Source: a virus
Lineage: Duplodnaviria; Heunggongvirae; Uroviricota; Caudoviricetes
Strand: one strand, 5' to 3'
Virus record (IMG/VR): IMGVR_UViG_643348544_000005
Length of the DNA: 49,714 nucleotides
Below the pieces are notes generated by a model. It made no database searches, was not told the DNA's origin, and saw only the letters and a list, made by a program, of their open reading frames with translations. Shown here piece after piece: positions 1-24,076 of this stretch. Every line of letters begins with the position of its first letter. Position 1 is the first letter of the stretch. Position numbers and translations under genes: made by a program.

Positions 1-1131
1 TCAAATGACCAGTTTTTTCCATTCCTTACCGCGTGCGTCGTTGTAAATATCGGTCATTTTTTGATTCGAATGGCCTAGCAAAATTTTGGTATCAACCCCC
101 TGCTCTCTGAACAATCGCTCTGATAAAGATCTCTGCTCATGGAAAGAGGGAGGGGTGCCATTAGCACGCCAGTTGTAATCCACAGAATCCCGGGCTTTTT
201 TAAATGCAACGGTTAATGTTGCTGGCTTAACCATCCCGCCGCGCTTAGCTGTCCCTTTCGCGTGATGGTGGTGCAATAGCCACGGACTAAGAACGCAATC
301 GCGGCAGGATGACACCACATCATCCAGGGTGAGATTTAATTTATCGCAACGCAGAGCCAGAGGGATGGCAATCCGGGTTCCTGTTTTTTGCTGTTCGACA
401 TGAAGATAACCATCCCGGATATCCGAAAATTGCATTTTGCAAATATCTGAAAGGCGCTGGCCTGTCATCAGTGCCAGCAGCATACCGTGCTGTAAAAAGT
501 AACCATCCTTTTCCGCTGCGTTATAAATCATCATCCACTCATCAAAAGTCAGTCGCTGTCTTGATATCCGCACCTGCGGTTTTTTTGCCGATTCTGCAGG
601 GTTAAAGCCTGGCGGGACATCGCCCGTTTGCTGAGCTTCCCGGAAAACATCGATCAGTACTTTCCTGAAAATTTGTCCCATTCTGTTATGTCCTCTGGCC
701 TTGTACTCTTCCAGTACTGATACCACATCTTTTACGGTTATGGCATCTAACGGTCTGGTGCCAAAACGTTCATCAAATACCCTGAGAGGGGCCGCTTTCT
801 GTTTCAGCGTGTTGAGTTTGATCTCGCCGTTTTCATATCTTTCCTGTTGAATTTTTCTGTAATTATTCAGAAAAATGGTAACGGTTGATGAACCGCCGGT
901 ATCACTAATAATTTTCTCCTGCAGACTGAGCATTTGTTCCATTTGCTGCCGGGCAAGACGGCTGTTCGCTTCTGCTGCAATAGTTTCTGCCAGTTTCTGG
1001 TCAATACTGCCGAGACCGTGATTTTTGCCTGTTATGGGATGCCTGTAACGCCAGTAAACTTTGTTATTTCTTTTGTCAAAATACGGAGATAATCCCGGAA
1101 CATCGGTTTTATATTTTCGCGGGCGCGCCAT
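1..1131 (-). CDS. int: Phage tyrosine integrase (site-specific recombinase)
   Basis: 376-aa ORF, ATG at 1129-1131, stop at window position 1-3; C-terminal region ...LLGHSNQKMTDIY... typical of the tyrosine recombinase catalytic region; overlaps upstream xis-like ORF by 23 bp in classic int-xis arrangement. Confidence 0.9.
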   Translation of the reverse strand: MARPRKYKTDVPGLSPYFDKRNNKVYWRYRHPITGKNHGLGSIDQKLAETIAAEANSRLARQQMEQMLSLQEKIISDTGGSSTVTIFLNNYRKIQQERYENGEIKLNTLKQKAAPLRVFDERFGTRPLDAITVKDVVSVLEEYKARGHNRMGQIFRKVLIDVFREAQQTGDVPPGFNPAESAKKPQVRISRQRLTFDEWMMIYNAAEKDGYFLQHGMLLALMTGQRLSDICKMQFSDIRDGYLHVEQQKTGTRIAIPLALRCDKLNLTLDDVVSSCRDCVLSPWLLHHHHAKGTAKRGGMVKPATLTVAFKKARDSVDYNWRANGTPPSFHEQRSLSERLFREQGVDTKILLGHSNQKMTDIYNDARGKEWKKLVI

Positions 1132-1357
1132 CTTCCAGTATCCTCTTCAAAGCAGGGTGATCTGTGGCGATCACCTCCGGCTTGTTTACCATTCCTACAA
1201 AGCGAGCTTGCGGATCCACTCGCCAGCGTCTTCCAACTTTTTTGGGGAGAGGAAATATCATTCCGGCTTTAGCGTATTTACTTAACGTACTCGGAGTAGG
1301 GACCGGTTCACTGAATTCCTCTTTTGCCCACTCAGTGAGCAGAATAAGTCTTGCCAT
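1109..1357 (-). CDS. xis: Excisionase-like small DNA-binding protein
   Basis: 82-aa ORF immediately upstream of and overlapping int on the same strand; small basic protein (…KKVGRRWRVDPQ…); assignment mainly by position. Confidence 0.6.
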   Translation of the reverse strand: MARLILLTEWAKEEFSEPVPTPSTLSKYAKAGMIFPLPKKVGRRWRVDPQARFVGMVNKPEVIATDHPALKRILEDGAPAKI

Positions 1358-1421
1358 GAGCGTCGTTCGCTAATCATGGTCGCCGCCACTATAGCTGGTG
1401 GGCAACGACCGGGGTTGAACA

Positions 1422-3893
1422 TTAAAAATCAGCCTGATTCGGGATCAGTTTTTGCCAGATAGTTGAAACGTATTTTGCCTGGTAACGGGCATCATCCAGC
1501 GCATTGTGGCGCTCACCTTCGAATGGAATAGCCGCCCTGGCATCGAAGTCCATGGCTTTTCCCAGCTCAACGATTGTGCGTACATCGCGATCGTTGTAGT
1601 AACGCCACGGGCAGGGGATCCCCTGCCGTTCGTATGAACGGCGCAAAATCGTGTTGTCGAAGTTGGCTCCATTTCCCCAGACCTGAACAAAAAATTCGCC
1701 GGAGTTTTCGTCGATAAATTCCCGCAATTGCAGCAGTGCATCATCTAACGGGATTTCATCGGTCAGAATGGCAGATTGCGCCTCCCGTGATTGCTTAAGC
1801 CACCATTTAATGGTGCCACGATCAATGACTCCGCCAGCAGTATCCATATCGATGGTCTTACTAAATTCCGGCCCCATATCTCCGGTTTGCGGATCGAAAA
1901 ATATTGCACCTATTGAGATAAGCGGGGCATCGGGATTTTTTCCCATGGTTTCAAGGTCGATCATCATGTGGTGCCACATTCTGCTGGTGGATGTGATTTC
2001 TTGATGACCGTTCACCTTAATTGAGTGATCTGCCGTCTCGCCAGTTTCATTATCGCTATCGTGATGCTGATTGCCGCCAGTGTTCTCCTTGTGTGGATGT
2101 TCAGCGCCTTCCATTTCCTCCGGATCATCTTCCTGAACTTCAGGCTGATACTCTTCATCGAATGTTTCCTGGTATGTTGCGTCGCCCATTACCGCGCCAC
2201 AATCAGGGCAGTTGCCGCCGCCGGTCTGACCGCAGGCGGTGCAGACTTTTTCCACTTCCTGTTGCGCCACTGATTCAGGCTGTTTCGTTTCTGGCTCGTT
2301 TTGTAACGCATTTGGGCTGTTTTGTTCCGCTTTCTGGTCGTTCTGTTCCGTTTCTTGCTGGTTCTGGTTCACAGAATCGCGGGTCTGGTTCCCCTTAACC
2401 CATTTCGGATCATTCGGGTCGCTAATCCCTTCAACAAATTCACCACGTGATACTGCAAGCAGTTCATCGGCGTCAGGCTGGCTGATATTGGCTGCCTGCA
2501 TAATTTTGTTTACTTCGTCAGCGGTAACTTTTACTGGCTCTGGTTGTGCGGTCGTGTCAGATGCACCAGTATTTTGTTGTGAACCTGAGTATGTACCGTT
2601 TTTACGTGCGAAGTATTCCTCTTTTGTGATTTCCGTAGCTCCCAGGGCCAGTGCTTTTTCCAGACCAGAAAGTTTGTTTGCGCGACCGTATTTTTCGCCG
2701 TCCTTATCGGTGAAGAGGAAGTAGAACGGCCCCTCACGCTCTACAGATGGTTCGACTTCCACTTTGCATTCGGTTTTTTCGTTGCCCGGAATTGCCGTTT
2801 CCACTGCATCAGTTTCTGGTACTGGCGACGAGAGAGTATCAGTTGCGCTCTGATTTCTTCCTTCATCTTCAAACACGCCCTTTGTAGTCAGGTATTCAGT
2901 AATGTATTTGTTCAGTGCCACAGGGTCTTTGTGAATGTCGATCGGACGTTCACGGACAAGGCCAAAAATAGTCTGGCGGTCGTAGCGAAGGGCATCAGGC
3001 TGTTTGCGCATTGATGCCGAGATACGCTTCCAGTCTTCGCGGTCGTTGTCGATAACTTCATTTTTTGCCCAGCGATGGATGCTGCCGTCAATGTTTCCGG
3101 CATCCACATCACCAGGCCAGAGAGCGTAGGCCAGTTCGTCATCCAGTGTTTTCCATGTCTGCTTGTATTCGCGATGAATGGCAGCAATGACCGGGCTGAT
3201 TTTTCCTGTTGAATTTTCACTGTGCTGTTGATTGGTTCTGGCGCGGGCGAGATCAACAACAGACGTGTATTTTCCGGTTTCCTTGCGTTCACCTTCGCGA
3301 CGTTTTTTCCAGATGCGCATCTCTGCCTGAATTTCGGGCCATTTGGCACCAGGCTTACATTTATGCTTAACCCACCCGATGGCATGCAGCTTAAGCTCCG
3401 GATACATGGCGTTAACTTCTGGCATTTTCATCAACGCTTCAACGATATGTCCGTCGAATGTTGCCATGTCTTCCTGCAACAATTCCTGTGCGCTAATAAC
3501 CATATCAACGGTGATGTTTTCACATGTGTCGAACTTAACCATGACAGCGTTCTGTACTTCAGGGGCCAGCTTGTCAAAAGTGACGTTCATCGGATCGGAT
3601 TCAGTCTCAACCGGGACAAAGGAAGCAGACTCCTCATCCCAGCGGTTTTCCTGCATATATTCAGCATCCCAGGAATCGAGGGCAGGGCGGGGTATACCGG
3701 GTTTATCCTCGCAGACAAGAAATTTATAAGCGCAGTCCTGAGCAGCCGGATAATGCTCCAGGAATTGCCAGTGAAATTTTGCGCGGGCGCGACGTTCATC
3801 ACCGGCTTCAATGGCAGTGGCTACAGCGACGGCACCTTCTTCCTTTATTGCCTGTTCGTCCGGAATGGCGGCGCAAATAAAGACTTTACTCAT
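1422..3893 (-). CDS. Large prophage exonuclease-family protein (C-terminal DnaQ-like 3'-5' exonuclease domain)
   Basis: 823-aa ORF, ATG at 3891-3893; C-terminal segment …HMMIDLETMG…FDNTILRR…HNALDDARY… resembles DEDDh exonuclease motifs; central CxxC…CxxC cluster (…CTACGQTGGGNCPDCG…). Confidence 0.75.
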   Translation of the reverse strand: MSKVFICAAIPDEQAIKEEGAVAVATAIEAGDERRARAKFHWQFLEHYPAAQDCAYKFLVCEDKPGIPRPALDSWDAEYMQENRWDEESASFVPVETESDPMNVTFDKLAPEVQNAVMVKFDTCENITVDMVISAQELLQEDMATFDGHIVEALMKMPEVNAMYPELKLHAIGWVKHKCKPGAKWPEIQAEMRIWKKRREGERKETGKYTSVVDLARARTNQQHSENSTGKISPVIAAIHREYKQTWKTLDDELAYALWPGDVDAGNIDGSIHRWAKNEVIDNDREDWKRISASMRKQPDALRYDRQTIFGLVRERPIDIHKDPVALNKYITEYLTTKGVFEDEGRNQSATDTLSSPVPETDAVETAIPGNEKTECKVEVEPSVEREGPFYFLFTDKDGEKYGRANKLSGLEKALALGATEITKEEYFARKNGTYSGSQQNTGASDTTAQPEPVKVTADEVNKIMQAANISQPDADELLAVSRGEFVEGISDPNDPKWVKGNQTRDSVNQNQQETEQNDQKAEQNSPNALQNEPETKQPESVAQQEVEKVCTACGQTGGGNCPDCGAVMGDATYQETFDEEYQPEVQEDDPEEMEGAEHPHKENTGGNQHHDSDNETGETADHSIKVNGHQEITSTSRMWHHMMIDLETMGKNPDAPLISIGAIFFDPQTGDMGPEFSKTIDMDTAGGVIDRGTIKWWLKQSREAQSAILTDEIPLDDALLQLREFIDENSGEFFVQVWGNGANFDNTILRRSYERQGIPCPWRYYNDRDVRTIVELGKAMDFDARAAIPFEGERHNALDDARYQAKYVSTIWQKLIPNQADF

Positions 3894-4589: not shown

Positions 4590-4928
4590 ATTGATAACAG
4601 AGGGCGTTGCAGCGGGGTTGTCACTTAAGCGTATGGTCAACCTGACAACCCGGTGTCCTCAACGGGGGAAGGAATAACCCCGCCATACTTACCGCCGCGC
4701 CATTTCGCGGATTGCCACAACCGGAAGCGCACGGTCGACGAAAATTTAACGACAGGCTATCTATGAACCAGCTACCTCGCCGTGCGCTTTCGCGTTATGG
4801 TCTGACTTTTCAGGGAAATATCCTTTCAGTAAACTGTCAGTGCCGGATTCTTATCCGTGTCCGGCGCACGACCACACGCTGTCACGAGAGGTCTCCATTC
4901 TCAACCAGTAACCTCAATGGAGGATAAA

Positions 4929-5123
4929 ATGTCAGAGCAGGAGTTAAAACTTGGTGCATGTTATTGTGTTCTCAAGGAGCTGGTACACATGCTTCCATCT
5001 ACTCAGTATCAACAGTTAGTTGGCAATTTAAATCAGCGAATCGAAGCTATGTTAAAATCTGATGGTTTTAATAACGTAGAAACGCTGATGCTAAAAAGAT
5101 ATCTTGATGGATTAATCAGATAA
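4929..5123 (+). CDS. Hypothetical small protein encoded antisense inside the dicBF operon spacer
   Basis: 64-aa frame MSEQELKLGACYCVLKELVHML… with SD GGAGGA (4917-4922) 6 nt before ATG 4929; converges on and overlaps the 3' end of the minus-strand gene 5112..5462 by 12 bp. Confidence 0.3.
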   Translation: MSEQELKLGACYCVLKELVHMLPSTQYQQLVGNLNQRIEAMLKSDGFNNVETLMLKRYLDGLIR

Positions 5124-5462
5124 CATTTTTTTACGGCGTTCATATTCGTTAATATTTATGAAGCCTGTTGCCAGAAGCAGTTCGTTAATTTCATGGTTGT
5201 TTGGCTGTTTCTGGCTCTTTGAGCTGGGATCTTCCACTTCTTTTTCTGCAAATTGTTTTGCTGTATCCTCTGTGCCATGGATATTTAAAGCTGTATCTGA
5301 AAACAGCCCAGTAAACGCATCGCGCACATTACGAGCCATATTATCAGTGTCTTTTTTTGTTACCGATTCCAATTCAAGTTCGTTCAGACGATGACGAAGT
5401 GTGTGTGCTGCAATCTCCTGGATTGAAGGAGGTAAATCTTTAAATTCCATCGTCAACCTCAT
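5112..5462 (-). CDS. dicBF-operon protein (position equivalent to YdfB/YdfC)
   Basis: 116-aa ORF directly downstream of ydfA with start overlapping the ydfA stop (ATGA at 5462); second in-frame ATG at 5450; identity beyond operon position not established. Confidence 0.5.
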   Translation of the reverse strand: MRLTMEFKDLPPSIQEIAAHTLRHRLNELELESVTKKDTDNMARNVRDAFTGLFSDTALNIHGTEDTAKQFAEKEVEDPSSKSQKQPNNHEINELLLATGFININEYERRKKMLSD

Positions 5463-5614
5463 CAGTCAGTGTTTCTTGCTAACCAGCGATGCGCGCCAGC
5501 TGCGGTTTTAAACGTTTTACTTTTGGTATACGTCATCGCGGTGAAGGTGCCGTCCTGGTTAGGGAACACACCGCATACCAGAGATTCGTTGTTGCCAAGA
5601 TCGATAGTATCCAT
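5462..5614 (-). CDS. ydfA: YdfA-like small protein
   Basis: 50-aa frame MDTIDLGNNESLVCGVFPNQDGTFTAMTYTKSKTFKT… from ATG 5612-5614 with GAGG SD; matches recollected Qin YdfA. Confidence 0.8.
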   Translation of the reverse strand: MDTIDLGNNESLVCGVFPNQDGTFTAMTYTKSKTFKTAAGAHRWLARNTD

Positions 5615-5730
5615 GCTGACCTCATTTCCCCTTAACGCCGGGGTAGCGGAACTGTTTGCGGAGAACACCGTGCGGTGTGTTGATGGAAGTAATTTAGTTT
5701 TCTCATTATTTTTCGTCAAGGCTTTTTGAT

Positions 5731-5742
5731 GAGAAAACTCAA
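5731..5742 (+). promoter_or_regulatory. Operator-like motif GAGAAAACTCAA (copy 1, leftward dicBF-operon promoter region)
   Basis: Same 12-mer recurs at 6267-6278 on the other side of the repressor gene, with extended similarity (GAGAAAACTCAAGTGTTGG vs GAGAAAACTCAATATTGG); OL/OR-like placement. Confidence 0.3.
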
Positions 5743-5806
5743 GTGTTGGCGCAAGATAAAGCCAATACATTGAAATGTAAGGCTTTAAAATTTTGTGAAG
5801 GGATGA

Positions 5807-6214
5807 TTATTGATGCTTGTTGCGTTTGCGAGCCTCTAATAGCTCGGTGAACAGGCGATTAAAATTCTCAACGCGGGCGCGGAGTTCGCTGAGTTGTGCT
5901 TGTTGCTCTGATTTAGGAAGTGCGCGATACAAACGCAGCATCTCTAACTCATCTTCCGATAAGTCTAGGGTACTATCGAGTGAAACAGGGGGAGCTGGTG
6001 TTTTGTCCTCGTCGCCAAACAGTATCCAGGTTGGTGAACATTGCAATACCTCGGCGAGGCGATGCAAATTTTGCCCGCGCGGGGCTGTATGGTCACTTTC
6101 CCATAATGAAATTGATGAGCCAGATACGCCAGCAGCTTTGCTTAAACCGTTTTGACTTAAGCCTACCTGCTTACGTCTTTCTCTAATGCGTTGACCTAAA
6201 GTTTTCTCGTTCAT
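5807..6214 (-). CDS. dicA: DicA-like HTH repressor (CI analogue)
   Basis: 135-aa frame from ATG 6212-6214 (MNEKTLGQRIRERRKQVGLSQ…VLQCSPTWILFGDEDK…) closely resembles recollected E. coli DicA; divergent from dicC-like gene. Confidence 0.85.
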   Translation of the reverse strand: MNEKTLGQRIRERRKQVGLSQNGLSKAAGVSGSSISLWESDHTAPRGQNLHRLAEVLQCSPTWILFGDEDKTPAPPVSLDSTLDLSEDELEMLRLYRALPKSEQQAQLSELRARVENFNRLFTELLEARKRNKHQ

Positions 6215-6266
6215 ATTTAGATATCTTAATAATCCTTGACTTGAGATTCCTTGAGTGATTAGCATT

Positions 6267-6278
6267 GAGAAAACTCAA
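6267..6278 (+). promoter_or_regulatory. Operator-like motif GAGAAAACTCAA (copy 2, dicA/dicC divergent promoter region)
   Basis: Second copy of the 12-mer found at 5731-5742; lies between dicA start and dicC start. Confidence 0.3.
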
Positions 6279-6291
6279 TATTGGAGGTGCG

Positions 6292-6519
6292 ATGTTTAAA
6301 TCAGACGTAATTAATTTTTACGGTACGAAAGCCAAAGTAGCGAAAGCTGCTGGCGTTGACCCATCTGCTGTTTCTCAATGGCAAGAGCTAGTTCCTGAAG
6401 GTCGCGCGATGCGTCTACAGGAGGCATCTGGCGGCGAGCTTCTGTATGATCCCAAGGTTTATGACGAATATCGTAAGACGAAGCGGGCGGGGCGGTTGAA
6501 CAATGAAAATCACTCCTGA
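6292..6519 (+). CDS. dicC: DicC-like Cro-type regulator
   Basis: 75-aa frame MFKSDVINFYGTKAKVAKAAGV…PEGRAMRLQEASGGELLYDPKVYDEYRKTKRAG from ATG 6292 preceded by GGAGG; resembles recollected DicC. Confidence 0.8.
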   Translation: MFKSDVINFYGTKAKVAKAAGVDPSAVSQWQELVPEGRAMRLQEASGGELLYDPKVYDEYRKTKRAGRLNNENHS

Positions 6520-7024
6520 ACAGGCTCGTGAGGCTCTGGATGCCTGGATATGTCGACCAGGAATGACACAGGAGCAGGCGACGATATTAATCACTGAAGC
6601 ATTCTGGGCTTTGAAAGAGCGCCCGAACATCGATGTTCAGCGTGTCACAGATGAAGGTGGCGCGGTTGATCAGCGAGCGCTTGGCGTTAATCGAGTGAAG
6701 ATATTCGAACGCTGGAAGGCTATCGACACCAGGGATAAGCGTGAAAAGTTCACGGCGCTAGTGCCTGCAATTATGGAGGCTATCCGGATTAATGATTTCA
6801 GGTTGTATCGTGAAATTAGTGACGGAAAAAGCATCACGTACATGATCGCCGGGTTAAACAAAGAATATGGCGATGTGGTGGAGTCCGGACTGCTTTTTGC
6901 TGATCCTGCCGTAGTGGATCGTGAAACTGACGAACTTATAGAAAAAGCAATTGCTTTCAAACTTGCGTATCGACAGCAATACCAACAAAAAGCTGGATGG
7001 AATTATGAGCCTTCTTTTTGCTGA
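6503..7024 (+). CDS. YdaT-like phage regulatory protein (CII-position)
   Basis: 173-aa ORF overlapping dicC stop; loose resemblance to recollected Rac YdaT (…KFTALVPAIMEAIR…); assignment tentative. Confidence 0.45.
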   Translation: MKITPEQAREALDAWICRPGMTQEQATILITEAFWALKERPNIDVQRVTDEGGAVDQRALGVNRVKIFERWKAIDTRDKREKFTALVPAIMEAIRINDFRLYREISDGKSITYMIAGLNKEYGDVVESGLLFADPAVVDRETDELIEKAIAFKLAYRQQYQQKAGWNYEPSFC

Positions 7025-7970
7025 ACGCCCACTGGTTATAAACACACAGCTTGCGATGAAGATTGGCTTAAATGAAGCCATTGTGTTGCAGCAGTTGCAT
7101 TACTGGTTGAGAGATACCAATTCCGGCATGGAATGTGATGGTGTTCGCTGGATTTACAACACAACGGAACAATGGCTGGAACAGTTCCCATTCTGGTCAG
7201 AGTCAACGTTAAAGCGCGCGTTTGCAAGTCTGAAAACGCTGGGGCTCTTGCGTTGTGAAAAGCTCAATAAATCAAAGCGCGATATGACCAATTTCTACAC
7301 GATTAACTATGGGAGCGAGCTTTTAGATGATGGCAAATTGAGCGAATCCATCGGTTCAAAATGCGCCGCTCCATCAGGTCAAAATGACACGATGGAAGAG
7401 GTCAAAATGAAACGCTCCATTGGTTCAAAACGACCCAATGTCATCGGGTCAAAATGGCCCGATGATCCTACAGAGAATACAACAGAGATTACTACAGAGA
7501 ATAAAAACACTTTTCGTCCGGAAGCTTCGCAACCGGACCCGCAGACGGCTGAACAGGATTTTTTAATCCGGCACCCTGGCGCAGTTGTGTTTAGTGCGAA
7601 AAAACGCCAGTGGGGTAGCCAGGAGGATCTGGCGTGTGCGCAGTGGATATGGGGGCGGATCGTGGGTCTCTACGAACAGGCCGCCAGTGATGATGGCGAG
7701 ATCATGCGACCAAAAGAGCCTAACTGGACTGTCTGGGCCAATGATGTGCGCACAATGCGGATGCTGGATGGCAGAAGCCACAGACAAATTTGTGAAATGT
7801 TTGGTCGGGTACAGCGGGATCCGTTCTGGGTAAAAAACATCATGAGCCCGTCAAAGCTCCGCGAAAAATGGGACGAACTGGTCATCCGCCTGGGGCGTTC
7901 ACCTGTACAGCGTTGTGTTAATCATATTTCTGAACCGGATACAGAAATTCCGCCTGGTTTCAGAGGATAA
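7005..7970 (+). CDS. Replication initiation protein (lambda O-like), contains origin iterons
   Basis: 321-aa frame from ATG 7005 (MSLLFAERPLVINTQLAMKIGLNEAIVLQQLHYW…); five iterons inside the gene encode repeated IGSK/GSK motifs; followed by AT-rich stretch, as in lambdoid ori-within-O. Confidence 0.65.
   Translation: MSLLFAERPLVINTQLAMKIGLNEAIVLQQLHYWLRDTNSGMECDGVRWIYNTTEQWLEQFPFWSESTLKRAFASLKTLGLLRCEKLNKSKRDMTNFYTINYGSELLDDGKLSESIGSKCAAPSGQNDTMEEVKMKRSIGSKRPNVIGSKWPDDPTENTTEITTENKNTFRPEASQPDPQTAEQDFLIRHPGAVVFSAKKRQWGSQEDLACAQWIWGRIVGLYEQAASDDGEIMRPKEPNWTVWANDVRTMRMLDGRSHRQICEMFGRVQRDPFWVKNIMSPSKLREKWDELVIRLGRSPVQRCVNHISEPDTEIPPGFRG
7348..7520 (+). repeat. Replication origin: five GGT(T)CAAAATG iterons plus AT-rich region
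   Basis: Directly seen: catcGGTTCAAAATG (7348), catcaGGTCAAAATG (7372), gaagaGGTCAAAATG (7395), cattGGTTCAAAACG (7418), catcgGGTCAAAATG (7442) at ~23-24 bp spacing, then acagagaatacaacagagattactacagagaataaaaacactttt. Confidence 0.7.
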
Positions 7971-8010: not shown

Positions 8011-8433
8011 GTGGCAAAAGTTTTTACACAAGAAGAGCGGGAAAAAATTAAAGGGCAGGTGGTGGAACTCGTGCGCCAGAGCGGTCGTGAGACGTTACGG
8101 CAACTGGAAGTCAAGACAGGTGCGACAAGATATCTGATGAGCGTTCTCGCAAGAGAGCTGGTTGCCAGCGGCGATGTATACAACTCTGGTTACGGGTTAT
8201 TCCCGTCTGAACAGGCGCGTAAGGACTGGCAAAATGCCCGTAAAAAGCTCTCAAGGGCAAAGCTGAAGGAACCATCTGCGGTTGATCCGGACCTTATCTG
8301 GTCATTACCTGACGGAGAAATACGTCGCTACGACAGGCGTCAGAACATAATCTGTCGCGAGTGCCGGAAGAGTGAAGTTATGCAGCGCATACTAGCATTC
8401 TATCAGGGAAATGCTCGATATTTATTGAAGTGA
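8011..8433 (+). CDS. Hypothetical phage protein (replication-module neighbour)
   Basis: 140-aa ORF with GTG start preceded by AAGGGGGA SD; function unknown. Confidence 0.4.
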   Translation: MAKVFTQEEREKIKGQVVELVRQSGRETLRQLEVKTGATRYLMSVLARELVASGDVYNSGYGLFPSEQARKDWQNARKKLSRAKLKEPSAVDPDLIWSLPDGEIRRYDRRQNIICRECRKSEVMQRILAFYQGNARYLLK

Positions 8434-8685
8434 TGAGATTAAAGTTTATTAGTTCAGATATTGATTGGCTCTTTTGTGGAGTAGGGTAGAGTTAGTGTGT
8501 TTGTCTGCTTGGTGCCAGCAGCGGATATGTTTAACAACAGAAAGCATTCAGCATGGTTAGTGGATTTGCAAAGTGGATTAGGATTTGAGAAACTTTGATG
8601 AAGTTGTAAAGCTTGTTTCTATAAAAATAGAAATTTAACTAATAGTTAAACACACCTCCAGCTTCATTGAAAAGGATTATTAGCT

Positions 8686-9585
8686 ATGATTGATCCACTT
8701 ATTAGAAACTTACAGAGTGATATTGCACTACTCCAGCTTTATATCGCGCAACGCAAACAGGCAGGCTTTCATGACATGGAAAGAATAATTGAGTCATTGA
8801 CCATCTTTATGTTTCGCGCGCTGAAAATGGGTGAACTGGTAAACATGAATCAGATTAAAGTTAATTTTCCCGCCATTGATTTAGCTGATAATAAAAACAT
8901 GATAGCAGTTCAAGTTACTACGAATGCAAGTCCAGCAAAAATTAAAAAAACTATCGAATCTTTTGAGGAAACAAATGAAATAGGAGAGAGTCTGAAAGAT
9001 AAATACTCTACTTTATATATTTTTGGTTTTTGTAAAGCCTCAAGATACCTAACTCCAAGTTATTGTAAAATAATCGACCCCAGCCATTTCGTGAATGAAC
9101 TTTGCGATAAAGCAGATGAAGATATGGTCCAGGATATGATTGACGCCATTCGACGCCATCATGATTATACATCATTACATCCATGGAGTGATAAAGATTC
9201 ACTCGAAATTATACTCAATATTATTAATCGCAATGCAATAAAACATCGGATGAGTTGCGAAGGCAGTCTGTCTGATATGCTTACTGGTTTAAAAGAAATT
9301 AATGAAGTAATTACAAAAGGAACAATTCAACGTAAGCAACGTTCAAAATCGATATCTGACTTCAAAGATCAAAGCATGGTGAAATTTATGAGAGGTGTAA
9401 TGGATGATTTGTCTGTTATTCAAGCCATAGTGAACAAATCTAAAGTTAACCAAGGTGATATGGTTTATATAAGCCATGAAGATATGATTAATATTGATAA
9501 ATTAAAAGCTAAAATAGCAAGTGATTCATCAGAGATTGCAAGGCTAAATAATATTGATATAACACTAAATGTTGTTGATTTATAA
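8686..9585 (+). CDS. SMEK-like domain protein (candidate accessory/defence gene in AT-rich island)
   Basis: 299-aa ORF, ATG 8686 with AAGGA SD; AT-rich codon usage unlike flanking phage genes; N-terminal …VNFPAIDLADNKNMIAVQVTTNASPAKIKKTIESFEE… resembles, from memory, the SMEK N-terminal domain family; unverified. Confidence 0.6.
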   Translation: MIDPLIRNLQSDIALLQLYIAQRKQAGFHDMERIIESLTIFMFRALKMGELVNMNQIKVNFPAIDLADNKNMIAVQVTTNASPAKIKKTIESFEETNEIGESLKDKYSTLYIFGFCKASRYLTPSYCKIIDPSHFVNELCDKADEDMVQDMIDAIRRHHDYTSLHPWSDKDSLEIILNIINRNAIKHRMSCEGSLSDMLTGLKEINEVITKGTIQRKQRSKSISDFKDQSMVKFMRGVMDDLSVIQAIVNKSKVNQGDMVYISHEDMINIDKLKAKIASDSSEIARLNNIDITLNVVDL

Positions 9586-9899
9586 TTGTCGATTTAGCAA
9601 AACAGAGAATGCTTTGAAAGTTTCACCGAGAAATATTTATTGTGAACCTCCTTATTGTTTATCGACTTTTACTCTCCGCTCATTGCAGTACTGTCGGAGA
9701 AGGCTACTATGTACAAGAAGCAGCTAACATAAGCGAGCATCACTATTGATATTAGGAAGAGTATATAAAAACTTCATGCTGAACCTTACAAAAGTAGGTA
9801 AACCGGCAATGGCCTAAGTGGCAGGGTCATGTTGATCCGGCACTGCCGAGCTAATAATTAACAAGCAAATCACTCTTTCTAATAATTTGTTGAAATAAA

Positions 9900-10559
9900 C
9901 TAAATATGTATATGTTTACCAACAACCACATATGAACTACCTGCTTTGCTCCATGATTTTATTATTTCTAAATTATTATCTGAGCATATTTTACTTACAG
10001 TATCCACATCTAATAAACCATAGTAGAAAGCATTACGAGAGTTTTGGTATATATACCCATGCAAATGTTTAATACCGCTCTCGTACCTCTTGAAATAAGA
10101 ACTTTTGTATTGATTGACAATCAGTGCTTCACCATCACTCTTTAATAATTCTCTAATCGCACTGAGGACTTTGTGAATTGTGGATTCACATGGAATTGCG
10201 GAAAGCACGTTTGCGCAAAGTATGAAATCATAATGATTTGTTATTTTATCTATATTTTCATAAGAAACAATATTAGCATTCTTATAGTTATTTATCACGT
10301 AATCTGGAATCGTGGTTTGTACACCTCTGATAATTTGCACTCTTTCTAGTTGTCTTCTGGAATCTAAAAATGTCACAGTTTCAAATTTATTTACTAATTG
10401 TTCTGAATATCTAAGTTTTCCACATCCAAAATCAAGGGCATTGCCATTTTTATTAGTGCTTTCAATCTGTTTACAGAGATAGTTAGATGGCATAGTGTGC
10501 GGTTTCGCTGCATTTTCTGAACGTATGTTTATTCCATTTATTTTGTAATTCAAAATCAA
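9900..10559 (-). CDS. Class I SAM-dependent methyltransferase
   Basis: 219-aa ORF (track start is TTG at 10559; alternative ATG at 10493); glycine-rich SAM motif …ALDFGCGKLRY… followed by acidic …VTFLDSR…; begins 7 bp after the stop of the upstream membrane-protein gene. Confidence 0.65.
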   Translation of the reverse strand: MILNYKINGINIRSENAAKPHTMPSNYLCKQIESTNKNGNALDFGCGKLRYSEQLVNKFETVTFLDSRRQLERVQIIRGVQTTIPDYVINNYKNANIVSYENIDKITNHYDFILCANVLSAIPCESTIHKVLSAIRELLKSDGEALIVNQYKSSYFKRYESGIKHLHGYIYQNSRNAFYYGLLDVDTVSKICSDNNLEIIKSWSKAGSSYVVVGKHIHI

Positions 10560-10565
10560 CCTCGT

Positions 10566-11261
10566 TTAAAAAATATTGTTATTGTTAAAGAATTCTTTTA
10601 TTTTGCTATCAGGTATTTGTCTTACTTGGCTTTCTGTTCTTGGTTTAACTGATGCTATGAAAATAAGGAAGTCAAATGCGACAAGAGAAATAATCCACAA
10701 CCAAAGATTAATTAAAGAGCCAGTAACAGAGAATATATTTGTTAATTTGGCGATACTTATTATTAAAATAGTAACAAATGCGATTACTGTATGTTCAAAG
10801 AAAACCCAAAAGTAATAAACTTTGTTCCAGAAAAGTTCAACGTAATGTTTGTCTTTTAACTCTTTAACTTCTGGGTAATACAGTTTACTCATTACCTTGT
10901 GAGATTCATCAGTAGTTAATTTTCTCGTAACGCCTGCAATTTTTGCTAATGGTTTAATAATTAAATGACTATCCCACATCTTCCTTATTCCAATAATTTT
11001 TGCTACATTATTATGTAGATCTAAAGCTCCACTAATTACTGACCAAAAAACTGAAGATGCAATTGGTAATATGCCAAAGGTTAATATCCATTTAATAAAT
11101 TCCTCGTAGTCTTTAACGGGGGGGATATACTTGGCATTAATGCCAACCAATGGCATGTAGCCATAAATGACTAATGATAGGTAAAATATAAATGTAGTAA
11201 TAAAAGTCGCCTTATGGAGCATAGGCAACATTTCATTATAACTCTTTGGTGGTTCTAACAT
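10566..11261 (-). CDS. Hypothetical 4-TM membrane protein
   Basis: 231-aa frame from ATG 11259-11261 with GGAGAG SD (MLEPPKSYNEMLPMLHK…); four long hydrophobic segments; AT-rich; co-directional and tightly linked with the methyltransferase. Confidence 0.65.
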   Translation of the reverse strand: MLEPPKSYNEMLPMLHKATFITTFIFYLSLVIYGYMPLVGINAKYIPPVKDYEEFIKWILTFGILPIASSVFWSVISGALDLHNNVAKIIGIRKMWDSHLIIKPLAKIAGVTRKLTTDESHKVMSKLYYPEVKELKDKHYVELFWNKVYYFWVFFEHTVIAFVTILIISIAKLTNIFSVTGSLINLWLWIISLVAFDFLIFIASVKPRTESQVRQIPDSKIKEFFNNNNIF

Positions 11262-12003
11262 TTTACTCTCCAAACATTCAAAAAAAAGCTAATCTTCTAT
11301 AATAACGAAATTCAGCTGGCACAATTAAAGATTAATTGCCACCAATTTCTTGATTTTATAATTTTATCTAAATGTTTTTGATTAATCTAGTCCTAAAAGA
11401 AACCTACTGCATAAATATTTATGCTGATGACCCACTCCCTGTTCGTTAACACATAGCAACGTTAGTAATGCATCCTAAGTGATCAATATTTTTGCTAGCT
11501 TCATCTGCTCGCTCAAAGGGAACTATAATGTTGGCTTGCGTGTGACTTGGCATGTTTAAAGAAGTGCTGGTGGTGACTGGTTGCTGTTTTCCATTTCCAC
11601 AGAACAAAATCATAGAAACTATACCCAGTAGTTGTATTGAATCACTGACGAGACAGCCTCATATTTATCAGGACTGGTGTACGTCCAATACAGGAGGTTG
11701 TGGTGCTGGTTCTCAAATGTGCGCTGGCTATTGCTGCTGTAATGGCAATTTATTGTCTTGCTGTTGTTCTTATGGATCACCTTTCTGATTGATTTCATAT
11801 TGGCGAGGTAACGGTAGTTAAGTAGAATTGCTGCGGGTGCTTGAGGCTATCTGCCTCGGGCATCAACACCAAAGGCAGATAGAGAAAAGCCCCAGTTAAC
11901 ATTACGCGTCCGGCAAGACGCTTAACATTAATCTGAGGCCATATCTATGCTCTACACACGTAGGTTAGCCTCTTACGTGCCGAAAGGCAAGGAGAAGCAG
12001 GCT

Positions 12004-12159
12004 ATGAAGCAGCAAAAGGCGATGCTAATCGCCCTGATCGTCATCTGTTTAACCGTCATAGTGACGGCACTGGTAACGAGGAAAGACCTCTGCGAGGTAC
12101 GAATCCGAACCGGCCAGACGGAGGTCGCTGTCTTCACAGCTTACGAACCTGAGGAGTAA
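12004..12159 (+). CDS. hokD: Hok/Gef-family type I toxin (HokD/RelF-like)
   Basis: 51-aa frame MKQQKAMLIALIVICLTVIVTALVTRKDLCEVRIRTGQTEVAVFTAYEPEE matches recollected HokD; upstream leader has hok-mRNA-like inverted repeats; in-frame upstream extension (from 11947) is the mok-like leader, not a separate gene. Confidence 0.85.
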   Translation: MKQQKAMLIALIVICLTVIVTALVTRKDLCEVRIRTGQTEVAVFTAYEPEE

Positions 12160-12229
12160 GAGACCCGGCGAGGGAGAAATCCCTCGCCACCTCTGATGTG
12201 GCAGGCATCCTCAACGCACCCGCACTTAA

Positions 12230-12250
12230 CCCGCTTCGGCGGGTTTTTGT
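12230..12250 (+). terminator. Intrinsic terminator after hok
   Basis: CCCGC-TTCG-GCGGG hairpin followed by TTTTT. Confidence 0.6.
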
Positions 12251-22446: not shown

Positions 22447-23067
22447 ATGAAAGATCAAGATGTTAGGTTCGCGGTGCATCATAAGCTTTTGAAAGAATCG
22501 CATTTAGATCCAGACTGCCTTGTGGTCGATGAATTTTCCATATCCCTTGGCGCCAGTAGAGCAGACATTGCTGTAATAAATGGTGTTATACACGGGTACG
22601 AGCTCAAAAGTGAATATGACTCTTTGGAGCGTTTGCCTCTTCAAATCAAGCATTATTCTTCTGTAATGGACAAGGTTACTCTTGTCGTAGCTGAGAAACA
22701 CCTTGAGGGAGCATTAAAGTTAATCCCAGGTTGGTGGGGCGTTAAAACGGTTTCTGTTGGGCCAAAAGGCGCCATTCTTATAAAGCACATGCGTGGAGAA
22801 AAGCTTAATCGAAACCATGACACATTGATGCTCGCTCAATTGCTTTGGAAAGATGAATGTATCGACGTACTTGAACGATGGGGCTATTCCAAAGGAATCA
22901 AAAGCAAGCCCCGATTTGAGTTATGGAATATTATTGCGGAAAATATTCCAATAGCGAATCTCAGGCCTGAAGTCAGAACAGCCTTAAAGAAACGCGTAGG
23001 CTGGAAAGTTAAGGCTTGGCAGGCTGAGTCTGCGCCAACCAATAAAGCTGTCTCACGACTAACGTAA
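22447..23067 (+). CDS. PD-(D/E)xK nuclease-like protein (candidate defence/accessory gene)
   Basis: 206-aa ORF, ATG 22447 with AAGGAG SD; …CLVVDEFSI…RADIAVIN…IHGYELKSE… fits a D…ExK restriction-endonuclease-like motif; AT-rich; resemblance to sce7726-type family is by memory only. Confidence 0.6.
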   Translation: MKDQDVRFAVHHKLLKESHLDPDCLVVDEFSISLGASRADIAVINGVIHGYELKSEYDSLERLPLQIKHYSSVMDKVTLVVAEKHLEGALKLIPGWWGVKTVSVGPKGAILIKHMRGEKLNRNHDTLMLAQLLWKDECIDVLERWGYSKGIKSKPRFELWNIIAENIPIANLRPEVRTALKKRVGWKVKAWQAESAPTNKAVSRLT

Positions 23068-24076
23068 TATGGTGCGTATGTGCAACTTTACGCCATTCTT
23101 TAGAGCCGCCAGATTTGTTAGCGCCTAATGATCTTTGGTAAATGTAATCATCCCCCCAACTAAATTTGGAGCCAAAGACTTGATACTCTGGCGAACTAAC
23201 AAGGGTAGTACATAAGTTTTTAGTTTGGCCCCATCCATTTCCTTTAACTGCGGTACCTTTTACAAAGATCCATGAGGTATCGTTCGAATATCTCACTGAG
23301 ACATACTGAGACATGAAGCGTGGGTCTACGCTCGTAATGGTAGAGCTAGCGGTGGGATAATCACTAAAACTTGGCGTTCTTCCATTGCTAAAATTCTGTA
23401 CTACGTACATCCAAAGATCGTATTCATGGCGCGGAATATGATGAACTTGATGTTGCGGTATCCCTGCCTGTGATGCCGGGTATGCGGTTGAAGATAAAAT
23501 CAAGTTTCTCCACGGAGCTTGGCCTGATAATGTGTTGACCATGCTTAATGCTTGTTGTTTTAAACTATCAGTTGCGTTTTGAATATCTCCAAAATCAATG
23601 ATTACATCAATTAAACTAGGATGAATATTTAAGTGGTTAACCAGACTTGTGAATTGGTGCCATGTCTGGGGGGTGATAGATATAGCGAGCCCATTGATTA
23701 AGTTGCGTTGAACAGCATGTATATAGTTTGTTGAATATGCGGGAGAAACAACAGGGATAATTTCCTTACCATTTACTCTAGCATCTTGGATACACATATC
23801 TAGAGGATGATGGCGGCTCGAACCATGTTTATCTAAATATTTAACATCCAGCAAAACAGGACGATTGGCTTTCCAGGATGCCGCAAGGTTAATACCGAAG
23901 TCAGATAAGTAAGAACTCAAATTCTTCTTGTAGCATTCGTTTTCATAATCCCAGTCTATGTCTGGAATGGTAATGATCGGAGTAAAACCAGAGAGCGTAG
24001 TTTGATCTAAAAGCATCAGAGATTCATATTCAGCAGGCTTCCATTTCAGCTGTGGATAATATTGATGTTGACTCAT
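23009..24076 (-). CDS. Hypothetical 355-aa protein (possibly beta-protein/sce7725-like), convergent partner of the nuclease-like gene
   Basis: ATG 24074-24076 with AAGGAG SD; 3' end overlaps the convergent gene by 59 bp (23009-23067); AT-rich; no motif recognised by eye. Confidence 0.6.
   Translation of the reverse strand: MSQHQYYPQLKWKPAEYESLMLLDQTTLSGFTPIITIPDIDWDYENECYKKNLSSYLSDFGINLAASWKANRPVLLDVKYLDKHGSSRHHPLDMCIQDARVNGKEIIPVVSPAYSTNYIHAVQRNLINGLAISITPQTWHQFTSLVNHLNIHPSLIDVIIDFGDIQNATDSLKQQALSMVNTLSGQAPWRNLILSSTAYPASQAGIPQHQVHHIPRHEYDLWMYVVQNFSNGRTPSFSDYPTASSTITSVDPRFMSQYVSVRYSNDTSWIFVKGTAVKGNGWGQTKNLCTTLVSSPEYQVFGSKFSWGDDYIYQRSLGANKSGGSKEWRKVAHTHHITLVVRQLYWLAQTQPAKP

What the first reader, a model, noticed from the sequence alone, without database searches (positions are those of the whole stretch)
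8440..11500. AT-rich accessory island: SMEK-like protein facing a membrane-protein/SAM-methyltransferase operon
Composition shifts sharply to AT-rich between the replication module and hok. The island holds a 299-aa protein (8686..9585) whose N-terminus (…FPAIDLADNKNMIAVQVTTNASP…) resembles, by memory, the SMEK domain family found at the N-terminus of diverse conflict-system proteins. Convergent with it is a two-gene operon: a 4-TM membrane protein (10566..11261) followed 7 bp later by a class I SAM methyltransferase with a GCG SAM-binding motif (9900..10559). None of these are lambdoid core functions, and the slot is a typical moron position. The membrane-protein/methyltransferase pairing has no function I can assign.
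Basis: partly seen in the sequence, partly recalled or inferred. Interest (0 to 1): 0.7.

Follow-up and report, generated by a model that had tools for sequence, protein, structure and literature searches.

The report
Prophage cargo: SMEK nuclease plus ymfED
A 3-kb AT-rich insert in a lambda-like E. coli prophage carries a stand-alone predicted SMEK (Mrr-like) nuclease and a copy of the uncharacterised K-12 gene pair ymfE-ymfD (membrane protein plus non-DNA methyltransferase); both are plausible but untested phage-exclusion cargo, and the genes are already auto-annotated in about 150 sequenced E. coli genomes.

Summary
About 2.98 kb (8529-11508, GC 0.33 against 0.50) lies between the DUF977 replication-module gene and hok/sok of a Rac/Qin-like prophage at ompW. 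Sister prophages hold unrelated cargo in this slot.

Gene 1 (8686-9585) is a genuine SMEK_N protein (NCBIfam 106 bits, Pfam 80 bits). Its N-domain matches the solved Mrr/SMEK domain of the Kordia short-pAgo partner. E36, D65, Q76 and K85 are invariant across the family. It has a private helical C-domain found only in this ~300-aa architecture, and no APAZ, pAgo or LmuB partner.

Genes 2-3 (10566-11261 and 9900-10553, minus strand) are diverged homologues of E. coli K-12 e14 ymfE-ymfD: a 4-TM protein plus a non-DNA class I SAM methyltransferase. The pair is adjacent in every locus examined (28/28 viral contigs, plus Vibrio, Pseudomonas, Marinobacter, Aeromonas and P2-like prophages).

Each module also occurs without the other, so these are two modules, not one restriction-modification system. 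In E. coli and Salmonella they travel as one block. Function is inferred, not shown: a single-protein defence nuclease plus a membrane-anchored methylation module. This is a good experimental lead, not a new class of system.

The parts
8529..11508 (.). AT-rich cargo cassette (GC about 0.33) in the variable slot between the DUF977 gene and hok/sok
   Evidence: Homology to sister prophages L030/L031/L033/L034 ends at 8525-8528 and resumes at 11509. Colinear at 83% identity with the ECO21 copy over 8514-11427. Composition.
8686..9585 (+). Stand-alone SMEK protein, 299 aa
   Evidence: Pfam SMEK_N 1.6e-22 and NCBIfam SMEK_N 4.9e-31. Full-length family of about 300 aa in Proteobacteria and Bacteroidota. 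dN/dS 0.30 and 0.18 against diverged copies.
8686..9075 (+). SMEK / Mrr-like PD-(D/E)xK nuclease domain (residues 1-130) with E36, D65, Q76-V-T78, K85
9088..9582 (+). Family-specific all-helical C-terminal domain (residues 135-299), function unknown; inferred regulator or sensor
9586..9899 (.). Convergent intergenic spacer between SMEK and the methyltransferase
   Evidence: Sequence. No significant RNA structure, z = -1.15. No Rfam hit. Conserved as part of the block in ECO21.
9900..10553 (-). ymfD-like class I SAM-dependent methyltransferase (217 aa from ATG 10553; the TTG 10559 start is less likely)
   Evidence: Methyltransf_12/23 and TehB above cutoffs. Weak TehB, OvoA-C and BioC hits. Nearest PDB relatives are TehB, UbiG and Rickettsia protein-lysine methyltransferases at E 1e-3 to 0.05, with no DNA methyltransferase. 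69% DNA identity to K-12 ymfD. dN/dS 0.27.
10566..11261 (-). ymfE-like inner-membrane protein (231 aa): TM1-TM2, cytoplasmic helical domain of about 55-60 residues, TM3-TM4; conserved H83, R93, Y129, H139, W152 and intramembrane E156
11262..11508 (-). AT-rich upstream (presumed promoter) region of the ymfE-ymfD-like operon, inside the cassette
   Evidence: Sequence. Lies within the cassette boundaries. The promoter scan is uninformative, no better than shuffles.
8011..8433 (+). Left flank: DUF977 family gene, last gene of the conserved replication module (not part of the cassette)
   Evidence: RefSeq annotation of the identical locus. Present in 4151 of 5426 E. coli genomes.
11835..12159 (+). 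Right flank: sok RNA match (11835-12009) and hokD CDS (12004-12159), a separate type I toxin-antitoxin (not part of the cassette)
   Evidence: Rfam RF01794, 114 bits. RefSeq hokD annotation, mapped from L001.

Best explanation
The region is a discrete cargo cassette of about 3 kb sitting in a hypervariable slot of a Rac/Qin-like lambdoid prophage. It holds two separately evolving accessory modules that have become physically linked in E. coli and Salmonella prophages.

Module 1 is a single-gene SMEK protein. It has an Mrr-like PD-(D/E)xK nuclease domain with an intact E-D-QxT-K signature, the same effector domain used by SMEK-APAZ/short-pAgo (SPARDA) and short Lamassu systems. That domain is fused to a helical C-domain found only in this family. 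I infer that the C-domain keeps the nuclease inactive or confers specificity, and that a cue from an infecting phage or foreign DNA releases DNA cleavage, giving restriction or abortive infection that protects the lysogen.

Module 2 is a ymfE-ymfD-type operon. A 4-TM inner-membrane protein, whose conserved cytoplasmic helical domain and intramembrane Glu/His face the cytoplasm, is tightly coupled to a soluble non-DNA class I SAM methyltransferase. I infer that YmfE recruits or activates YmfD at the membrane to methylate a membrane-associated or small-molecule substrate, giving a prophage-borne exclusion or conversion function.

Shown here: the identities, domain architectures, conservation, gene linkage, mobility and purifying selection. 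Inferred: nuclease activity, the regulatory role of the C-domain, the YmfE-YmfD interaction, the methylation substrate, and any anti-phage role.
For: - SMEK identity and nuclease signature. The literature describes SMEK as an Mrr-like nuclease effector (PMC10810196, PMC12205087, PMC12663957, bioRxiv 10.1101/2023.06.08.544223).
- Fixed architecture and private C-domain.
- SMEK has no conserved partner in 22 loci of other genera. It sits in integrase islands or beside Abi_alpha, SLATT_5, SymE/TacA and DUF4062 genes.
- The pair is homologous to K-12 e14 ymfE-ymfD, which lies next to the Abi peptidase gene lit.
- The methyltransferase is adjacent to the membrane gene in 28/28 viral contigs. The same holds in P2-like prophages, in the Vibrio TA-rich array, next to Hachiman in Pseudomonas, and in Marinobacter and Aeromonas.
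- The slot is variable.
- Purifying selection: dN/dS 0.11-0.30.
- The methyltransferase resembles small-molecule or protein methyltransferases, not DNA methyltransferases.
Against: - There are no functional data for any of the three genes.
- PADLOC recognises no system here.
- Neither the C-domain nor the membrane protein has an informative fold match.
- The K-12 ymfD knockout has no growth phenotype and no specific role in mRNA m6A (PMC12096079).
- None of the genes is found in 50,697 deposited phage genomes, so a role during the phage lytic cycle is unlikely but cannot be assessed.
- In SMEK the canonical ExK is replaced by QxT, with the lysine displaced to K85, so catalytic competence rests on analogy with the weakly active KjAgo partner.
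- Cargo in such slots can also be conversion or metabolic genes (QueH and BLUF-EAL were seen nearby).
Confidence: 0.55

Rival explanations
1. The three genes form one functional system, either restriction-modification-like (SMEK nuclease restrained or complemented by the YmfD methyltransferase, with YmfE as a membrane sensor) or a sensor-effector trio.
For: 150 of 151 E. coli SMEK copies lie beside a ymfED-like pair of the same divergence class. The convergent arrangement is kept in at least three diverged allele classes with congruent divergence: SMEK/MT/MEM about 100/100/100, 88/84/91 and 83/81/85%. It is also kept in ECO21 on a different phage backbone, where the block appears inverted relative to the replication genes, and in Salmonella. 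A convergent nuclease-methyltransferase layout is typical of restriction-modification systems.
Against: Each part occurs alone in close relatives. SMEK occurs alone at 79-83% identity in E. coli EC05, Pectobacterium and a P2-like prophage. The pair occurs without SMEK at 83-86% identity in four viral contigs, Enterobacter and Cronobacter, in 283 E. coli genomes with the e14 allele, and in four other genera. A nuclease that needs a protective methyltransferase could not persist alone in 22 or more lineages. The methyltransferase shows no similarity to DNA methyltransferases.
Confidence: 0.15
2. The ymfE-ymfD-like operon is not a defence system. It is a lysogenic-conversion or detoxification module, for example methylation of a lipid, quinone, envelope precursor or toxic small molecule (TehB-like), benefiting the host independently of phage.
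For: The nearest relatives are TehB, UbiG and other small-molecule methyltransferases. The gene positions, at prophage ends, after ogr in P2-like prophages and after O/P in lambdoids, are classic sites for conversion genes. Conserved intramembrane E156/H157 suggests an enzyme or transporter rather than a pore toxin.
Against: The pair recurs next to conflict genes: lit, Hachiman, TA arrays and the SMEK nuclease. All similarities to characterised methyltransferases are weak, at E >= 1e-3. No phenotype is reported for K-12 ymfD (PMC12096079).
Confidence: 0.3
3. The SMEK protein is a constitutive type IV (modification-dependent) restriction endonuclease of the Mrr/AspBHI kind, with the C-domain as its DNA or modified-base reader, rather than a triggered abortive-infection nuclease.
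For: The domain is Mrr-like, and AspBHI is cited as its closest nuclease homologue (bioRxiv 10.1101/2023.06.08.544223). Its single-gene organisation without a methyltransferase in most lineages matches type IV enzymes.
Against: The C-domain is purely helical and matched no known modified-base reader fold such as SRA or winged helix. In characterised systems SMEK acts as a triggered collateral effector (PMC12205087, PMC12663957).
Confidence: 0.2
4. The island is decaying or silenced hitch-hiking DNA with no current function.
For: It is AT-rich and therefore likely bound by H-NS. One genome carries an IS5 insertion in it. An unreadable 2026 preprint names ymfE in the context of H-NS-silenced loci.
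Against: All three ORFs are intact and under purifying selection, dN/dS 0.11-0.30. The families are conserved down to 17-40% identity across phyla or classes, with invariant residues.
Confidence: 0.05

Closest known systems
SMEK-APAZ partner of short pAgo (SPARDA-type; Kordia jejudonensis KjAgo system; PDB 26bh Mrr domain)
   Same: Homologous N-terminal SMEK/Mrr-like nuclease domain with the same E...D...QxT...K signature (profile E=1.5e-13; PADLOC Aga_REase 1.2e-20).
   Different: No APAZ domain, and no PIWI/pAgo gene nearby here or in any homologue locus. The C-terminal half is an unrelated helical domain private to this family.
Short Lamassu LmuA with a SMEK effector domain
   Same: Uses the same effector domain type at the N-terminus of a defence protein (PMC12663957).
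   Different: No LmuA middle or C-terminal region, and no SMC-like LmuB neighbour. The protein is only 299 aa.
Mrr / AspBHI-type type IV restriction endonucleases
   Different: The domain order is reversed here (nuclease at the N-terminus). No recognisable DNA or modified-base reader domain. Specificity is unknown.
E. coli K-12 e14 prophage ymfE-ymfD
   Same: Homologous gene pair with the same order and tight coupling (69% DNA identity over 95% of the query). Both are prophage cargo next to another conflict gene: lit in e14, SMEK here.
   Different: A different allele in a different prophage and slot. In e14 the pair is divergent from lit at the prophage end by icd. The function of ymfE-ymfD is itself unknown.
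TehB / UbiG-type class I SAM methyltransferases
   Same: Rossmann-fold class I methyltransferase with motif I DFGCG, an acidic motif II and motif IV NVLSAIP.
   Different: Only weak similarity, E 1e-3 to 0.05. The family has its own invariant N-terminal NAAKP and C-terminal NQxxSSYFK...SYYG motifs and an obligate membrane-protein partner.

Membership tests
SMEK_N domain family (Pfam PF21941 / NCBIfam NF033859) | Score above the curated HMM cutoffs | tested here: met
   Pfam 80.3 bits (cutoff 27); NCBIfam 106.4 bits (cutoff 30).
SMEK_N domain family (Pfam PF21941 / NCBIfam NF033859) | Mrr-like restriction-endonuclease fold with the conserved acidic/Gln/Lys signature | tested here: met
SMEK_N domain family (Pfam PF21941 / NCBIfam NF033859) | Nuclease activity | not testable with these tools
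   Needs biochemistry. Only weak collateral nuclease activity is reported for the KjAgo/SMEK-APAZ complex (as cited in PMC12205087).
SPARDA / short pAgo with SMEK-APAZ | APAZ domain fused to the effector, and an adjacent short pAgo (MID-PIWI) gene | tested here: not met
   The C-domain has no Pfam or PADLOC hit. The neighbours are a DUF977 gene and a methyltransferase. No conserved neighbour in 22 homologue loci.
Lamassu (LmuA-LmuB) | Effector fused to the LmuA core, plus an SMC-like LmuB gene | tested here: not met
   The protein is 299 aa with a private helical C-domain. There is no SMC-like neighbour in the window or in the homologue loci.
Restriction-modification system (nuclease plus cognate DNA methyltransferase) | The methyltransferase belongs to a DNA N6A, N4C or C5 methyltransferase family | tested here: not met
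   Pfam, NCBIfam and PDB hits are only to small-molecule or protein methyltransferases: Methyltransf_12/23, TehB, UbiG and PKMT. The alignment shows no (D/N/S)PP(Y/F/W) or PC...ENV motif.
Restriction-modification system (nuclease plus cognate DNA methyltransferase) | Nuclease and methyltransferase obligately co-occur | tested here: not met
   SMEK has no methyltransferase nearby in 22 loci, in EC05 or in L111. The pair occurs without SMEK in K-12 e14, P2-like prophages, Enterobacter, Cronobacter and four other genera.
YmfE-YmfD gene pair (E. coli K-12 e14) | Sequence homology of both proteins and conserved order (membrane gene upstream, methyltransferase immediately downstream) | tested here: met
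   68.9% DNA identity over 95% of the query to annotated ymfE/ymfD. Same order, with the genes abutting. Adjacent in 28/28 viral contigs.
Class I SAM-dependent methyltransferase | Rossmann-fold motifs I, II and IV and an HMM score above cutoff | tested here: met
   Methyltransf_12 35.0 bits (cutoff 30), Methyltransf_23 34.2 (27), TehB 24.4 (20.4). Motifs are invariant in the family alignment.
Known anti-phage systems in PADLOC-DB v2.0 | Full-length HMM hits to the components of a defined system | tested here: not met
   Only the N-terminal third of an Argonaute-associated REase model matches SMEK. The methyltransferase gives a weak mad2 hit (9.7e-5). The membrane protein gives nothing.

The most novel reading that the evidence does not exclude
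YmfE-YmfD is a previously unrecognised, widely mobile anti-phage or MGE-competition system. In it, a membrane-embedded protein and a non-DNA SAM methyltransferase modify an envelope or small-molecule target to block infection. The solo SMEK protein with its private C-domain is a new single-protein triggered nuclease. The two have been selected to travel together in enteric prophages because they act against complementary phage sets.
Probability: 0.22. Interest if true: 0.7.

Novelty: new variant of a known kind. Interest (0 to 1): 0.45.

Why it matters
If the inferences hold, the cassette provides two compact, experimentally tractable candidates for prophage-encoded immunity. The first is a 299-aa stand-alone version of the SMEK nuclease effector, which so far has been studied only as part of pAgo and Lamassu systems. 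Its private C-domain could show how such effectors are switched on without a partner. The second is ymfE-ymfD, a y-gene pair present in E. coli K-12 itself, so Keio mutants and e14-cured strains already exist. Its strict two-gene linkage across Gammaproteobacteria and its recurrent placement beside Lit, Hachiman, TA arrays and SMEK argue for a conflict-related role involving non-DNA methylation at the membrane. No characterised defence system is known to me that works this way (own knowledge). The analysis also documents the DUF977-hok slot of Rac/Qin-like prophages as a cargo hotspot.

Tried and rejected
- Restriction-modification reading: rejected as the main explanation. The methyltransferase is not DNA-methyltransferase-like, and each part occurs alone.
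- SPARDA or Lamassu membership: rejected. There is no APAZ, pAgo or LmuB.
- Terminal repeats or a transposon-like structure of the cassette: only short, chance-level repeats.
- Structured RNA in the convergent spacer: z = -1.15 and no Rfam hit.
- Promoter and terminator scans: no better than shuffles.
- Deposited phage genomes: no copy of the island or its proteins.
- Literature on ymfD/ymfE: only a 'potential SOS box', no SOS induction, and no growth or specific m6A phenotype (PMC6590174, PMC11002266, PMC12096079). The preprint 10.64898/2026.09.05.749240 mentions ymfE 11 times and 'ymfE and lit' once, but could not be opened.
Full report
OBSERVATION. The three ORFs are present as described: 8686-9585 (+, 299 aa), 9900-10559 (-, 219 aa from a TTG start) and 10566-11273/11261 (-, 235/231 aa). 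GC drops to 0.30-0.35 across about 8400-11400, against 0.45-0.52 on both sides. The island is 0.326 and the whole window 0.502.

The window is a lambdoid (Rac/Qin-like) prophage integrated beside ompW. An essentially identical locus in RefSeq reads: integrase, exonuclease, dicB, ydfABC, repressor/cro, YdaT, a replication gene, DUF977, [SMEK domain-containing protein | class I SAM-dependent methyltransferase | hypothetical protein], hokD, rem, DUF968, RusA, antiterminator.

There are two small corrections. First, RefSeq and the N-termini of distant homologues favour ATG 10553 as the methyltransferase start, giving 217 aa and a 12-nt gap. Second, comparison with sister prophages places the cassette ends at about 8528/8529 and 11508/11509.

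THE SLOT. The DUF977 gene occurs in prophages of 4151 of 5426 complete E. coli genomes. What lies between it and hokD differs between prophages:
- a DUF4209 protein;
- two unrelated hypotheticals;
- an IS element plus ydfW/flxA/ydfV/relBE;
- QueH.

The cassette itself is present at >=99% identity in about 145-150 of 5426 genomes and is absent from 50,697 deposited phage genomes.

GENE 1, SMEK. PADLOC matches only the N-terminal REase part of an Argonaute-associated protein model (1.2e-20). A profile of 64 family members hits one solved structure, 'the Mrr domain from Kordia jejudonensis Mrr-APAZ pAgo' (26bh), at E=1.5e-13, with E36, D65 (FPAIDLAD), Q76-V-T78 and K85 aligned.

The C-domain has no Pfam or PADLOC hit. 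A profile of the C-domain searched against 1.84 billion representative proteins found only 95 clusters. In every full-length hit the domain occupies about residues 130-300 of a 290-320-aa protein. All 57 full-length members tested carry SMEK_N. E36, D65, Q76 and K85 are invariant at 17-49% identity, and D169, R182, E192, G212 and K221 in the C-domain are nearly invariant. This is therefore a small, fixed-architecture family: a nuclease effector plus a private C-domain.

SMEK CONTEXT. In 22 loci from other genera (Pectobacterium, Aeromonas, Xanthomonas, Variovorax, Paraburkholderia, Sulfurimonas, Bacteroidota and others) no relative of the methyltransferase or membrane protein lies within 7 kb. 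No neighbour is conserved at all. The annotated contexts are integrase or resolvase islands and small islets beside other conflict genes:
- Abi_alpha in Vibrio;
- SLATT_5 in Pseudomonas;
- SymE/TacA in Enterobacter;
- a DUF4062 protein in a P2-like prophage;
- an integrase island near CbtA in E. coli EC05.

This is the signature of a stand-alone conflict gene. There is no APAZ, pAgo or LmuB, so it is not a member of SPARDA or Lamassu, although it plausibly works like their effector.

GENES 2-3, THE PAIR. The methyltransferase passes the Methyltransf_12/23 and TehB cutoffs and has only weak equivalog hits (TehB, OvoA-C, CpaM, BioC). A family profile finds only weak PDB relatives: Rickettsia protein-lysine methyltransferases, TehB, MJ0882 and UbiG, at E 1e-3 to 0.05, and no DNA methyltransferase. 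The alignment shows motif I LDFGCGKLRYS, motif II FxDS and motif IV NVLSAIPC. It also shows family-specific invariant motifs (N-terminal NAAKP; NQxxSSYFK...SYYG) and no DNA-methyltransferase motif IV.

IDENTITY OF THE PAIR. One source names a homologue 'ymfD'. A distant DNA search then shows 68.9% identity over 95% of the query to the annotated ymfE-ymfD of E. coli K-12, present in 283 genomes. In e14 the pair lies at the prophage end by icd, abutting and divergent from lit, the cell-death peptidase gene.

The pairing is conserved well beyond E. coli:
- P2-like prophages of Providencia and Enterobacter, right after ogr;
- an Enterobacter lambdoid prophage, right after O/P, which is the equivalent slot;
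- a Cronobacter prophage end;
- a TA-rich array in Vibrio cholerae;
- next to Hachiman HamA/HamB in Pseudomonas;
- among IS and TA genes in Marinobacter;
- an integrative element in Aeromonas.

In those four distant genera the upstream protein is homologous (24-42% identity), with three of the four (Vibrio, Marinobacter, Aeromonas) giving the same or nearly the same hydrophobic-segment pattern; Pseudomonas passed the threshold for only two segments. In IMG/VR the methyltransferase is adjacent to the membrane gene in 28/28 loci.

The literature held here gives no function. There is a 'potential SOS box' at ymfE (PMC6590174) but no SOS induction (PMC11002266). The ymfD knockout has no growth defect and is not a specific mRNA m6A methyltransferase (PMC12096079). 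A September 2026 preprint on H-NS silencing of immunity loci mentions ymfE 11 times and 'ymfE and lit' once. It could not be opened, and phrase probes found no functional statement about ymfE in it.

ONE SYSTEM OR TWO? This needed care. In E. coli the counts coincide. SMEK is in 151 genomes (145 at >=99%, 5 at 80-90%, 1 at 79%). The pair shows the same 145 + 5, plus 283 e14-type copies. The convergent SMEK -> <- MT <- MEM arrangement persists in diverged copies: E. coli ECO21 on a RepO/DnaB backbone (from the gene order, the block appears inverted relative to the replication genes), Salmonella (beside a GT4-conflict glycosyltransferase), and IMG/VR allele classes at about 88/84/91% and 83/81/85% identity for SMEK/MT/MEM. 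The whole 2.9-kb block, spacers included, is colinear between the window and ECO21.

Each part is nevertheless found alone in close relatives. SMEK occurs alone at 79-83% identity in EC05, Pectobacterium and a P2-like prophage. The pair occurs without SMEK at 83-86% identity in L077/L079/L080, Enterobacter and Cronobacter. I conclude that two autonomous modules were juxtaposed once and have since been inherited and exchanged as one cassette. An obligate three-gene or restriction-modification-like system is unlikely (about 0.15). Functional synergy is not excluded.

All three genes are under purifying selection: dN/dS 0.30, 0.27 and 0.11 against ECO21, and 0.18 for SMEK against Salmonella. No terminal repeats, structured RNA or Rfam family was found inside the cassette. 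The only strong Rfam hit is sok at 11835-12009, outside the cassette.

MECHANISM.
- SMEK (inferred, roughly 0.5): a single-protein defence nuclease. The nuclease signature shared with the pAgo-associated SMEK domain is shown. That the C-domain gates or targets the nuclease, and that a phage cue triggers DNA cleavage, is inference by analogy with SPARDA and Lamassu, where the effector is activated on sensing. A constitutive type IV restriction role is a live variant.
- ymfED-like (inferred, roughly 0.35 for a defence or exclusion role): tight coupling and strict co-occurrence are shown. That the cytoplasmic domain of YmfE docks YmfD, and that the substrate is a membrane-associated or small molecule, is inference from the methyltransferase class and the topology. 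A non-defence conversion or detoxification role is the main rival (about 0.3).

COMPARISON AND NOVELTY. The sequences are already in databases and auto-annotated, and the pair corresponds to known y-genes. Nothing here is a new class. What is not described in the literature I could search is:
(a) the solo 'SMEK plus private C-domain' architecture as a distinct, fixed family without pAgo or Lamassu partners;
(b) the strict, wide conservation and MGE/defence-island context of ymfE-ymfD;
(c) their linkage as a mobile cassette in the DUF977-hok hotspot.

I rate this as a new variant of a known kind and a solid experimental lead, with interest 0.45.

Noticed in passing
window 22447-23067 (+) and 23009-24076 (-): A second cargo pair between the lysis genes and the terminase. 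One protein hits PADLOC 'cll' (3.8e-31). The other is a Beta_protein (Pfam 7e-56) hitting PADLOC PD-Lambda-2_C (6e-32). RefSeq calls them 'sce7726 family' and 'beta family protein'. This is probably another prophage-borne defence candidate.
   Followed up: partly
window 11835-12249: An Rfam sok antitoxin RNA match (114 bits) at 11835-12009 overlaps the start of hokD (12004-12159). There is a weak sub-threshold isrK-like match at 12168-12249.
   Followed up: partly
window 11552-11788 (+): An unannotated 78-aa cysteine-rich ORF (many CC/CCC runs) lies in the conserved region upstream of hok/sok, outside the cassette. It may be spurious.
   Followed up: no
NZ_CP127265.1 (hits H4/H33), corresponding to the window island: In strain TW14425 the island is split by an IS5 insertion into the membrane-protein gene region, so at least one lineage has inactivated part of the cassette.
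   Followed up: no
L050 (E. coli ECO21) 4794-7382: The same three-gene block at about 83-88% identity sits in a different lambdoid backbone (RepO/DnaB helicase/ORF6N). From the gene order it appears to be in the opposite orientation relative to the replication genes.
   Followed up: partly
L051/L052 (Salmonella) 50-3364: The Salmonella copy of the block lies next to a GT4-conflict family glycosyltransferase and a phage integrase, which is another conflict-associated neighbour.
   Followed up: no
L002 (contig labelled Streptomyces sp. NPDC088196): A 3-kb contig carries an 87%-identical SMEK gene of enterobacterial type. This is most likely contamination of that assembly.
   Followed up: no
L030 6032-7819 (E. 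coli MS20675): In a sister prophage the same DUF977-hokD slot holds a single 595-aa DUF4209 protein. Other sister prophages hold relBE/flxA, QueH or unrelated hypotheticals, so the slot is a rich place to mine for further cargo.
   Followed up: partly
window 9178-9192 (SMEK residues 165-169): A conserved H-P-[W/Y]-x-D motif at the start of a helix in the C-domain aligns with the Fic motif region of PDB 7cb8 only at E=2, and it lacks the GNGR motif. This is probably coincidental.
   Followed up: partly
L037 386-5334 (Pseudomonas sp. PICF141): The ymfE-ymfD-like pair lies directly downstream of a Hachiman system (HamA plus a DEAD/ResIII helicase) on the same strand.
   Followed up: no
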